Source of the DNA: Gammaproteobacteria bacterium
GTDB taxonomy: Bacteria; Pseudomonadota; Gammaproteobacteria; JAJFKG01
Direction: 5' to 3'
Length of the DNA: 64,000 nucleotides
Assembly (NCBI GenBank): GCA_021156325.1
Contig: JAJNDI010000002.1
Coordinates: forward strand, 4,757-68,756
This document shows positions 994 to 1,060 of the stretch, piece after piece. Every line of letters starts with the position of its first letter. Within the stretch, counting starts at the first letter, position 1. The notes below the pieces were generated by a model that was given only the letters and a program-made list of their open reading frames with translations, was not told where the DNA came from and did no database searches. The translations under genes and the position numbers were made by a program.

Positions 994-1060
994 GGCAACT
1001 CATCACAACTGATGAGCGGGTGAAATTCCTGCGAAACCCTGCTAGGGTCTTGTGAAAGCC
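994..1060 (+). ncRNA. Hammerhead self-cleaving ribozyme, copy A (type I topology, open stem I)
   Basis: Stem I is UCACAA 1003-1008 / UUGUGA 1050-1055. CUGAUGA is at 1009-1015. Stem II is GCGGG 1016-1020 / CCUGC 1028-1032. GAA is at 1033-1035. Stem III is ACCCU 1036-1040 / AGGGU 1044-1048. C17 is at 1049, so cleavage is predicted at 1049|1050. An optional stem I extension pairs GGC 994-996 with GCC 1058-1060. Confidence 0.85.

What the first reader, a model, noticed from the sequence alone, without database searches (positions are those of the whole stretch)
994..1060. Hammerhead ribozyme A: complete type-I (open stem I) self-cleaving motif on the + strand
Read as RNA, 1003-1055 holds every invariant hammerhead position in the correct order. 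Stem I is UCACAA (1003-1008) paired with UUGUGA (1050-1055). CUGAUGA is at 1009-1015. Stem II is GCGGG (1016-1020) / CCUGC (1028-1032), with the G10.1-C11.1 closing pair and loop UGAAAUU. GAA is at 1033-1035. Stem III is ACCCU (1036-1040) / AGGGU (1044-1048), with A15.1-U16.1 and loop GCU. C17 is at 1049, so cleavage is predicted after GUC, between 1049 and 1050. GGC 994-996 can pair with GCC 1058-1060. That extends stem I past an asymmetric internal loop (AACUCA versus AA), the kind of element that contacts loop II in fast natural hammerheads. The motif sits in ORF-free DNA about 110 nt after the kinase-OTU stop codon.
Basis: seen in the sequence. Interest (0 to 1): 0.78.

Follow-up and report, generated by a model that had tools for sequence, protein, structure and literature searches.

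The report
Hammerhead ribozyme in Legionella mobile element
The motif is a real type I hammerhead self-cleaving RNA, one copy of a family that sits at the start of integrase and ssb/ardA transcripts in Legionella mobile elements; this kind of ribozyme was first noted in 2011, so it is a solid but ordinary find.

Summary
Window 1003-1055 (+) holds a complete type I hammerhead: CUGAUGA, GAA, A15.1-U16.1 and C17 at 1049, with stems I, II and III of 6, 5 and 5 bp. This is not chance. A strict descriptor found 0 matches in 300 shuffles, and a model built from homologues scores it at 69 bits.

The window comes from a Legionellales genomic island next to tRNA-Phe. In 80 Legionella loci fetched through the neighbouring integrase I found 116 homologous hammerheads. 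All lie on the coding strand, upstream of an intA-intB operon or of ssb/ardA. The core never varies except at N7, and 14 of 17 stem pairs covary. A sigma-70-like -10 box usually ends 13-14 nt before C3, so the ribozyme probably sits at the very 5' end of the transcript. A covarying pseudoknot follows it (window 1058-1103).

A second copy lies at 3442-3511 (-), upstream of ssb.

No Rfam hammerhead model reaches its threshold (best is HH9, 25.5 bits against 52). Perreault et al. 2011 already reported bacterial hammerheads near integrases and before ardA in Legionella. Verdict: new member of a known kind. Cleavage and biological role remain untested.

The parts
1003..1055 (+). Hammerhead A, type I. 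Stem I 1003-1008/1050-1055; core CUGAUGA 1009-1015; stem II 1016-1020/1028-1032 with loop 1021-1027; GAA 1033-1035; stem III 1036-1040/1044-1048 with loop 1041-1043; C17 at 1049. Predicted cleavage between 1049 and 1050.
   Evidence: Sequence; descriptor; shuffles; custom model R1 scores 69.2 bits, E=7e-18; family covariation; core invariance.
1058..1103 (+). Pseudoknot directly after the hammerhead. P1 1058-1062/1080-1084; P2 U1068-C1071 with G1099-A1102 (the fifth pair, U1072-U1098, is broken; U1070-A1100 is compensatory against the consensus C-G); P3 C1076-C1077 with G1086-G1087.
   Evidence: Alignment A6 of 100 homologues: 96% of cells paired against 30-55% for slid controls, and 9 of 12 pairs change on both sides. 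Independent mutual-information scan. blastn similarity of the window to the Legionella loci stops at about 1106.
986..994 (+). Positional homologue of the family's extended -10 box (TG 986-987, TATTAG 989-994), 14 nt before C3. It is degenerate here: the final T is G, and the -35 position reads TCTCTA (966-971).
   Evidence: Alignment A2; upstream sequences; the -10 box ends 13-14 nt before the CUGA box in 73 of 108 homologues.
947..975 (+). Alternative sigma-70-like promoter candidate, TTGCTT-N17-TACAAT. It would start transcription near 982, about 20 nt before stem I.
   Evidence: Best-scoring site in my promoter scan of the 80 nt upstream. The tool scan at stricter settings did not list it. 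Consensus match only.
999..1016 (+). Competing hairpin CUCAUCA (999-1005) with UGAUGAG (1010-1016), which would hide the catalytic CUGAUGA box. Specific to this copy.
   Evidence: It is the minimum-energy fold whenever 5' flank is included. It is not conserved in homologues.
1690..2589 (+). Downstream gene: tyrosine-recombinase-like 'IntB' (PF12834 plus PF12835), the gene that the hammerhead module precedes in relatives.
   Evidence: Pfam; homologues are Legionella integrases; synteny in 80 loci.
3442..3511 (-). Hammerhead B, a second type I copy on the opposite strand, about 355 nt upstream of ssb. Core intact; one A-A mismatch in stem II.
   Evidence: R1 scores 57.8 bits, E=2e-14; sequence; also the weak descriptor hit.
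2741..3088 (-). ssb gene (115 aa) served by hammerhead B.
   Evidence: Pfam SSB. The hammerhead-to-ssb/ardA arrangement recurs in relatives, and is also found inverted relative to intB in the close relative L082.

Best explanation
Window 1003-1055 encodes a genuine type I hammerhead ribozyme. It belongs to a lineage found in Legionellaceae integrative/conjugative elements, genomic islands and plasmids. In that lineage a fixed module heads two transcription units, intA-intB and ssb/ardA. The module is a sigma-70-type promoter, then the hammerhead about 6-8 nt later, then a small pseudoknot. The likely mechanism is as follows. RNA polymerase starts at or just before stem I. The nascent RNA folds into the three-way junction and cleaves itself between C1049 and U1050. 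A leader of about 50 nt is released, carrying the 5'-triphosphate and a 2',3'-cyclic phosphate. The downstream RNA is left with a 5'-OH end (UUGUGAAAGCC...) followed closely by the pseudoknot at 1058-1103. I infer that this gives the integrase mRNA (1690-2589) a uniform, structured 5' end that does not depend on the promoter, which would affect its stability or translation. Shown: the motif, its homology, the core and stem conservation, the strand and position rules, the promoter-like box, and the pseudoknot. Inferred: the transcription start, the cleavage itself, and its effect on expression. In this window the copy is atypical. intA and the RAGATH-13 and RAGATH-32 leader elements are absent, the -10 box is degraded, and a copy-specific hairpin competes with the active fold. 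Activity of this particular copy is therefore less certain than for the family.
For: Motif and coordinates; not chance. Rfam's best clan hit is a hammerhead model covering its full length (HH9, 25.5 bits, E=2.4e-4 on 301 nt). The window is identical to a Legionellales-like metagenome contig carrying an island with integrases, SSB and two CsrA genes next to tRNA-Phe. In 80 Legionella loci fetched through IntB, descriptor hits and 116 model hits all lie on the + strand. The layout is hammerhead, intA, intB, optional cargo, hammerhead, ssb, ardA. The same layout occurs in the two closest relatives and on Legionella plasmid pPC1000_1. Among 102 distinct sequences, C3 is kept in 101, and U4, G5, A6, G8, A9, G12-A14, A15.1, U16.1 and C17 in all 102, while N7 varies (U78, C13, A10, G1). 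Stems: 89% of cells paired against 31-37% for slid controls, 14 of 17 pairs change on both sides, and 0 of 500 shuffles reach the covariation score. The promoter-like -10 box ends 13-14 nt before C3 in 73 of 108 cases. The pseudoknot covaries. The minimal 53-mer folds into the hammerhead shape as its minimum-energy structure, -15.2 kcal/mol. Literature: bacterial hammerheads near integrases are active in vitro and in vivo in other species, and ardA follows a hammerhead in three Legionella strains (PMC3088659).
Against: No Rfam hammerhead family reaches its gathering score. There are no transcription or cleavage data. The hammerhead sequences were collected with a descriptor or model that requires pairing, so part of the pairing percentage is built in by selection (the covariation and the fixed genomic position are not). 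In this copy the -10 homologue ends in G and the -35 is poor. With any 5' flank, a hairpin that hides CUGAUGA is predicted to be 1.4-4 kcal/mol more stable than the hammerhead fold. The usual downstream partners (intA, RAGATH-13, RAGATH-32 at threshold) are missing. [quoted passage not shown] The proposed benefit (5'-OH end, insulation, stability) is an analogy, not evidence.
Confidence: 0.75

Rival explanations
1. Orphaned relic. The hammerhead sequence is intact, but this copy is no longer used. The island is rearranged: intA and the normal leader are lost and the ssb module is inverted. The promoter has decayed, so the ribozyme is rarely transcribed or misfolds.
For: There is no intA remnant, and nothing beyond about 1106 resembles the family leader. 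The -10 homologue is TATTAG with a poor -35. A competing hairpin is favoured in this copy only. Decayed copies exist elsewhere, for example L009 with C3 changed to U and an A-C mismatch at 10.1-11.1.
Against: All core positions, all 16 stem pairs and 11 of 12 pseudoknot pairs are intact. Several of these are compensatory differences from relatives, which argues for continued selection. The same contig keeps a second intact copy. Relatives also show the inverted arrangement.
Confidence: 0.15
2. 3'-end processing of the upstream gene. Read-through transcripts of the 1210-aa kinase gene are cut at 1049/1050. This would define that mRNA's 3' end (2',3'-cyclic phosphate) and separate it from the integrase message.
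For: The hammerhead is on the same strand, 110 nt after the stop codon, with no terminator-like site between 892 and 1003. In typical loci the second hammerhead lies 50-100 nt after the intB stop, so it could also trim that mRNA. Perreault et al. proposed operon processing.
Against: The upstream neighbour is different in almost every relative (avidin-like, SecA-like, hypothetical and others). A promoter-like box sits at a fixed distance in front of the ribozyme. This role could be additional, but it is not what the family is conserved for.
Confidence: 0.08
3. Chance match, or an element that works as DNA (for example a recombination site or a single-stranded DNA structure used in conjugative transfer) that merely looks like a hammerhead.
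For: The module lies in a mobile element beside recombinase and ssb/ardA genes, where DNA-level sites are expected. Rfam models do not call it.
Against: 0 of 300 shuffles match. The conservation pattern is exactly that of the ribozyme: invariant catalytic bases, free N7 and covarying helices with G-U pairs. The strand always matches the downstream genes.
Confidence: 0.02

Closest known systems
Type I hammerhead ribozymes of bacterial prophages and mobile elements (Perreault et al. 2011, PLoS Comput Biol, PMC3088659)
   Same: Same catalytic core and three-helix junction with stem I open. Located near integrase genes and flanking single genes or short operons. That paper explicitly notes ardA directly downstream of a hammerhead in three Legionella strains. 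Related type I copies occur in arrays on IMG/VR viral contigs.
   Different: In the passages I read (a term search, not the whole paper), that paper describes none of the following: the fixed promoter-to-ribozyme spacing, the pseudoknot that follows, or the regular hammerhead-intA-intB / hammerhead-ssb-ardA layout across Legionellaceae. This copy comes from an uncultured Legionellales bacterium and has a rearranged context.
Rfam Hammerhead_HH9 (RF02275) and the other hammerhead families of clan CL00010
   Same: HH9 is the best Rfam hit. It aligns over the full model with the core and stems I-III in register. From my own knowledge, HH9 is also a type I hammerhead.
   Different: The score is 25.5 bits against a gathering score of 52. 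The homologue in L036 gets no hammerhead hit even at E up to 1. From my own knowledge, HH9 is an intronic element of amniotes with a long interrupted stem I. This RNA is not a member of that family.
[quoted passage not shown]
   Same: In typical Legionella loci both motifs lie between the upstream hammerhead and intA. The window's GGC...GUCGUUUAG...GAAA stretch (1082-1102) corresponds to the conserved 5' part of RAGATH-32.
   Different: Neither family is detected in the window, even at permissive thresholds. The Rfam RAGATH-32 model treats its 5' third as unpaired. Here that part pairs with the sequence immediately 3' of the hammerhead (P1, P2, P3), so ribozyme and RAGATH-32 look like one continuous leader.
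RiboJ-type synthetic insulators (a hammerhead plus a downstream hairpin placed between promoter and RBS). Recalled from memory, not checked here.
   Same: Works alike on paper: promoter, then a self-cleaving hammerhead that removes promoter-derived 5' sequence, then a hairpin at the new 5' end.
   Different: RiboJ is an engineered part built, as I recall, from a plant satellite-RNA ribozyme of type III. This is an analogy of mechanism only, with no homology claimed and no functional data for the natural module.

Membership tests
Hammerhead ribozyme (class) | Conserved core: C3 U4 G5 A6 N7 G8 A9, G12 A13 A14, A15.1-U16.1, and H17 (not G) before the cleavage site | tested here: met
   CUGAUGA 1009-1015, GAA 1033-1035, A1036-U1048, C1049. 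The same positions are invariant in 101-102 of 102 homologues, and only N7 varies.
Hammerhead ribozyme (class) | Three helices (I, II, III) radiating from the core, supported by covariation | tested here: met
   Stems of 6, 5 and 5 bp in the window. On 82 homologues, 14 of 17 pairs change on both sides, with 89% of cells paired against 31-37% for slid controls.
Hammerhead ribozyme (class) | Type I topology: stem I open, stems II and III closed by loops | tested here: met
   Loop II is UGAAAUU and loop III is GCU. The 5' and 3' ends leave through stem I.
Hammerhead ribozyme (class) | Tertiary contact between stem I and stem II elements (loop-loop or pseudoknot) that gives fast cleavage | tested here: inconclusive
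Loop II is conserved in sequence (about YGNRAWY). No column outside it covaries with it.
Hammerhead ribozyme (class) | Mg2+-dependent site-specific self-cleavage giving 2',3'-cyclic phosphate and 5'-OH ends | not testable with these tools
   Needs transcription and cleavage assays or end-specific RNA-seq.
Rfam curated hammerhead families (RF00163, RF00008, RF02275, RF02276, RF02277, RF03152) | Score at or above the family's gathering threshold | tested here: not met
   No hit at gathering score. Best hits are HH9 at 25.5 bits against 52, and RAGATH-1-hammerhead at 14.7 bits against 56.3.
Legionellaceae mobile-element hammerhead leader module (defined here) | Match to the lineage-specific covariance model | tested here: met
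   R1 scores 69.2 bits. The window sequence was in the training set, but the family range is 45-77 bits, and the untrained copy B scores 57.8.
Legionellaceae mobile-element hammerhead leader module (defined here) | Same strand as, and upstream of, intA-intB or ssb/ardA | tested here: met
   Copy A is 635 nt upstream of intB on the + strand. Copy B is about 355 nt upstream of ssb on the - strand. intA itself is absent.
Legionellaceae mobile-element hammerhead leader module (defined here) | Sigma-70-like promoter whose -10 box ends 13-14 nt before C3 | tested here: inconclusive
   The positional homologue TG-C-TATTAG ends 14 nt before C3 but lacks the final T and a good -35.
Legionellaceae mobile-element hammerhead leader module (defined here) | Pseudoknot P1/P2/P3 directly 3' of stem I | tested here: met
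   11 of 12 pairs form in the window, at 1058-1103.
RAGATH-32 (RF02922) / RAGATH-13 (RF02688) | Score at or above the gathering threshold downstream of the hammerhead | tested here: not met
   Both are present in 5-7 of 8 typical loci. They are absent from the window at gathering score and at E up to 10.

The most novel reading that the evidence does not exclude
The hammerhead, the pseudoknot after it and RAGATH-32 form one promoter-proximal device that conjugative elements of Legionella use on their establishment genes (ssb, ardA and the intA-intB recombinase pair). By cutting itself off the first roughly 50 nt, the ribozyme would give these mRNAs a 5'-OH end protected by a pseudoknot. That would make expression independent of promoter context and resistant to 5'-end-dependent decay, much like a natural counterpart of synthetic ribozyme insulators. 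The downstream structure might also gate cleavage. Where two copies flank intA-intB in the same direction, the excised RNA (5'-OH and 2',3'-cyclic phosphate ends) could even be a substrate for ligation into a circle.
Probability: 0.2. Interest if true: 0.6.

Novelty: new member of a known kind. Interest (0 to 1): 0.35.

Why it matters
The biological role of bacterial hammerheads is still unknown. This lineage offers a regular and tractable case. The ribozyme has a fixed distance from its promoter. A covarying pseudoknot follows it and links it to an orphan Rfam motif (RAGATH-32). The same two gene sets, a recombinase pair and ssb/ardA, lie downstream in dozens of Legionella species, some of them culturable. 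That makes the question of what 5'-terminal self-cleavage does for a mobile element directly testable with a dead-core mutant. There is also a practical point: no Rfam hammerhead model reached its threshold on any copy scanned here, so annotation that relies on those models would presumably miss them. For the window itself the finding is a correct identification, not a discovery.

Tried and rejected
- **Rfam at gathering thresholds, whole window:** only three tRNAs.
- **Exact or fixed-spacing pattern of this copy in viral contigs:** nothing.
- **megablast of 1-8000 against phages:** only tRNA-Phe matches, so this is not a known phage.
- **blastn of 996-1106 against plasmids:** no match. The family is too divergent for plain DNA search. 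Protein-anchored synteny plus a covariance model was what worked.
- **Stem I extension GGC 994-996 with GCC 1058-1060:** rejected.
- **Pseudoknot between loop II and a flank:** no covariation found.
- **Remnants of intA or of the RAGATH leader between 1107 and 1689:** none.
- **Direct repeats in that spacer** (for example 1161-1189 and 1449-1477): left unexplained.
- **OTU domain in the upstream protein:** not detected by Pfam, even at E up to 10.
- **tRNA-Phe repeat marking the left end of the island:** not found within 8.3 kb to the left.
- **Weinberg 2015 (PMC4509812):** could not be read. No held paper mentions RAGATH-13 or RAGATH-32. The main text of Weinberg 2017 does not discuss them.
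- **Type II and III descriptors:** only weak, short-stem hits that I regard as chance.

Full report
**1. The observation.**
- Stem I is UCACAA (1003-1008) with UUGUGA (1050-1055).
- The core CUGAUGA is at 1009-1015.
- Stem II is GCGGG/CCUGC, closing the loop UGAAAUU.
- GAA is at 1033-1035.
- Stem III is ACCCU/AGGGU, closing the loop GCU.
- C17 is at 1049.

A descriptor I wrote for all three hammerhead topologies finds this as the only well-formed type I hit in the window, with stems II/III/I of 5/5/6 bp. In 300 dinucleotide-preserving shuffles of the window, a loose descriptor (stems of at least 4/3/3 bp) matched 0.12 times per window and a strict one (6/5/5 bp) never matched. The motif starts 110 nt after the stop codon of the upstream ORF. 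Two small corrections apply. A 53-codon ORF (894-1055) formally overlaps the motif, though it has no family match. The upstream protein's kinase domain is confirmed, but Pfam does not detect an OTU domain.

**2. Public RNA models.** At Rfam's curated thresholds the window gives only three tRNAs. In a permissive scan of 900-1200, the best hit is Hammerhead_HH9. It aligns over its full length with core and stems in register, but at 25.5 bits against a gathering score of 52 (E=2.4e-4 for 301 nt). Homologues in Legionella loci are not called by any Rfam hammerhead model at gathering score. One of them, in L036, got no hammerhead hit even at E up to 1.

**3. Origin of the window.** Window 1-12,589 is identical to a JGI metagenome contig. 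The left 7 kb is a genomic island beside tRNA-Phe (6921-6993, minus strand). It contains:
- a 1210-aa Sel1/SH3/kinase protein ending at 892;
- the hammerhead;
- a recombinase with PF12834 and PF12835 domains at 1690-2589, here called IntB;
- ssb on the minus strand (2741-3088);
- two csrA paralogues (4293-4439 and 4802-5062);
- a tyrosine integrase (5769-6911).

IntB's relatives are overwhelmingly Legionella and Legionellales proteins at about 50% identity. It is not a known phage.

**4. Relatives.** I aligned 25 IntB homologues and fetched 80 loci from one genome per species, all Legionellaceae or related metagenome-assembled genomes. My descriptor found type I hammerheads in most of them, always on the strand of the integrase. 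After removing duplicates, 82 sequences aligned cleanly. On that alignment the three stems are 89% paired against 31-37% when partners are slid. 14 of 17 pairs show changes on both sides, including the 10.1-11.1 pair switching between G-C and A-U. No shuffle out of 500 reached the observed covariation score.

A covariance model built from this alignment (R1) scores the window copy at 69.2 bits. It also reveals a second copy on the minus strand at 3442-3511 (57.8 bits). Across the 80 loci it finds 116 copies, all on the + strand. Among 102 distinct sequences every catalytic position is invariant or nearly so. C3 is kept in 101 of 102, and U4, G5, A6, G8, A9, G12-A14, A15.1, U16.1 and C17 in all 102. 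N7 varies freely (U78, C13, A10, G1). That is the signature of a hammerhead under selection for catalysis.

A caveat: the sequences were collected with tools that require some pairing, which inflates the percentage paired. It does not explain the compensatory changes or the fixed genomic position.

**5. Genomic rule.** Gene mapping in the loci gives one layout again and again:
- a hammerhead;
- about 340-400 nt (in some lineages about 800 nt) of leader;
- intA, a 269-aa protein with a weak SAM-like integrase N-terminus;
- intB;
- optional cargo;
- a second hammerhead;
- about 500-1100 nt of leader;
- ssb and/or ardA.

The two closest relatives of the window's IntB show the same modules. One has the hammerhead-ardA unit inverted, as the hammerhead-ssb unit is in this window. 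Legionella plasmid pPC1000_1 also has the layout. The gene upstream of the ribozyme differs from locus to locus. The position after the kinase gene in this window is therefore incidental.

**6. What flanks the ribozyme.** Alignments of both module classes and the raw upstream sequences show a sigma-70-like promoter of the form TTGnnn-N16-17-(TGn)TAnnnT. Its -10 box ends 13-14 nt before C3 in 73 of 108 distinct cases, whereas in the other cases the best-scoring site is scattered between 9 and 51 nt. With a start 6-8 nt after the -10 box, the transcript would begin at the first bases of stem I. The ribozyme would be the extreme 5' end of the RNA.

Directly after stem I comes a conserved hairpin whose loop pairs with downstream bases. 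In the window these are P1 1058-1062/1080-1084, P2 1068-1071/1099-1102 and P3 1076-1077/1086-1087. On 100 homologues this pseudoknot is 96% paired, against 30-55% for slid controls. 9 of 12 pairs change on both sides, and P3 alternates between U-A (53) and C-G (42). An independent mutual-information scan picked out the same pairs and found none involving loop II.

GCC 1058-1060 belongs to P1. Its proposed partner GGC 994-996 overlaps the -10 position and is not conserved.

In typical upstream modules the leader continues into Rfam RAGATH-32 and, just before the intA start codon, RAGATH-13. The Rfam RAGATH-32 model leaves its conserved 5' third unpaired. My counts indicate that this part pairs with the bases next to the hammerhead, so the ribozyme and RAGATH-32 are probably one continuous structure.

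**7. How this window's copy differs.**
- Similarity to the family ends at about 1106.
- No intA remnant and no RAGATH-13 or RAGATH-32 hit exists between 1107 and 1689. By eye, though, two adjacent hairpins at about 1119-1153 resemble the 3' half of RAGATH-32.
- The -10 homologue is TATTAG with a poor -35. A better promoter-like site (TTGCTT-N17-TACAAT, 947-975) lies further upstream.
- The 53-nt core folds into the hammerhead shape as its minimum-energy structure (-15.2 kcal/mol).
- Any added 5' flank favours a hairpin, CUCAUCA/UGAUGAG (999-1016), that hides the catalytic box. It is favoured by 1.4-4 kcal/mol in a model that ignores tertiary energy. This hairpin is not conserved in relatives.

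I therefore rate homology to the family as near certain, cleavage competence of the family as very likely, and efficient cleavage of this particular copy as likely but open.

**8. Mechanism and rivals.** The best-supported reading is a promoter-proximal, self-removing leader. Cleavage between C1049 and U1050 releases about 50 nt carrying the triphosphate. The integrase mRNA is left with a 5'-OH end followed by the pseudoknot. The effect on stability or translation is inferred by analogy only.

The rivals are:
- an orphaned relic (0.15);
- 3'-end trimming of read-through kinase-gene transcripts (0.08, and not exclusive of the main reading);
- chance or a DNA-level site (0.02).

Evidence for each is given in the Rival explanations section.

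**9. Comparison with what is known.** Perreault et al. 2011 reported hundreds of bacterial hammerheads, many near integrase genes and flanking single genes in prophages. They demonstrated cleavage for several, and noted ardA immediately downstream of a hammerhead in three Legionella strains (PMC3088659). The RAGATH motif names themselves record that these genes were recognised as ribozyme-associated. A pattern scan of IMG/VR found 94 stretches with similar type I hammerheads. The model confirmed 169 copies in the 80 loci returned, often 3-7 per contig on one strand.

A search of the held literature found no paper other than Perreault et al. that pairs hammerheads with Legionella. A looser search on hammerheads and conjugative leading regions listed none among its top results.

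The find is therefore a new member of a known kind. The modest additions are the fixed promoter spacing, the pseudoknot that ties the ribozyme to RAGATH-32, the regular two-module layout across Legionellaceae, and the failure of the Rfam hammerhead models to reach threshold on the copies tested.

**10. Verdict.**
- Observation: confirmed.
- Interpretation: right in the main and wrong on the stem I extension.
- Novelty: low.
- Interest: 0.35.
- The most novel reading not excluded is a natural ribozyme-insulator device for the establishment genes of conjugative elements. I give it about 0.2 probability.

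Noticed in passing
window 3442-3511 (-): A second intact type I hammerhead (R1 57.8 bits; core complete, one A-A mismatch in stem II, long loop III). It lies about 355 nt upstream of ssb (2741-3088, minus strand) and is convergent with copy A.
   Followed up: yes
window 1058-1103; L036 4854-4897 and the other loci: A covarying pseudoknot directly after the hammerhead overlaps the 5' third of Rfam RAGATH-32, which the Rfam model treats as unpaired. 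Hammerhead and RAGATH-32 look like one structure.
   Followed up: yes
L002-L081, about 60 nt upstream of each hammerhead: A sigma-70-like promoter at fixed spacing, with the -10 box ending 13-14 nt before C3 in 73 of 108 cases. It implies that the ribozyme is the first thing transcribed.
   Followed up: partly
L004, L005, L013, L023, L029, L038, L051 and others (about 4800 and about 7000): Two hammerheads in the same orientation bracket intA-intB, about 2.2 kb apart. The excised RNA would carry 5'-OH and 2',3'-cyclic phosphate ends, so circularisation is conceivable. Not applicable to this window, where the copies converge.
   Followed up: no
window 3893-3971 (both strands): Sub-threshold Rfam hits to SymR antitoxin RNA (minus strand, 41.6 bits against 61, E=2e-5) and to the R1162-like plasmid antisense RNA (plus strand, 27.4 bits). 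They sit at the 5' edge of the ORF at 3964-4263 and may be an antisense-RNA control element.
   Followed up: no
window 1107-1689: About 580 nt of AT-rich, ORF-free spacer before intB, with imperfect direct repeats (1161-1189 and 1449-1477; 1249-1278 and 1447-1476) and two terminator-like hairpins (1392-1412, 1563-1577). It has no counterpart in the Legionella loci.
   Followed up: partly
window 1-892 (L001 5571-9203): The upstream gene encodes a 1210-aa protein with Sel1, SH3 and eukaryotic-type kinase domains, so it is effector-like. Its C-terminus has Cys/His motifs that look OTU-like (DNGNCFY ... GDHYLSV) by eye, but Pfam gives no OTU hit.
   Followed up: partly
window 4293-4439, 4802-5062, 5769-6911, 6921-6993: Two csrA paralogues and a tyrosine integrase abutting the 3' end of tRNA-Phe, which I recall as typical of Legionella integrative elements. 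No tRNA-derived repeat marking the other island end was found within 8.3 kb to the left.
   Followed up: partly
L104/L116/L145, L109/L132/L152, L149, L110, L118 (IMG/VR contigs): Arrays of 4-7 related type I hammerheads on one strand within a few kb of viral contigs. They score lower (30-58 bits) than the Legionella copies.
   Followed up: partly
L009 4775-4832: A homologous copy with C3 changed to U and an A-C mismatch at 10.1-11.1, apparently a decaying ribozyme at the conserved position.
   Followed up: no
plasmid collection: IntB-like proteins (35-49% identity) are common on small non-mobilizable plasmids of Acinetobacter, Psychrobacter, Shewanella, Glaesserella and Francisella. This hints at a plasmid-resolution type of recombinase rather than a phage integrase.
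   Followed up: no
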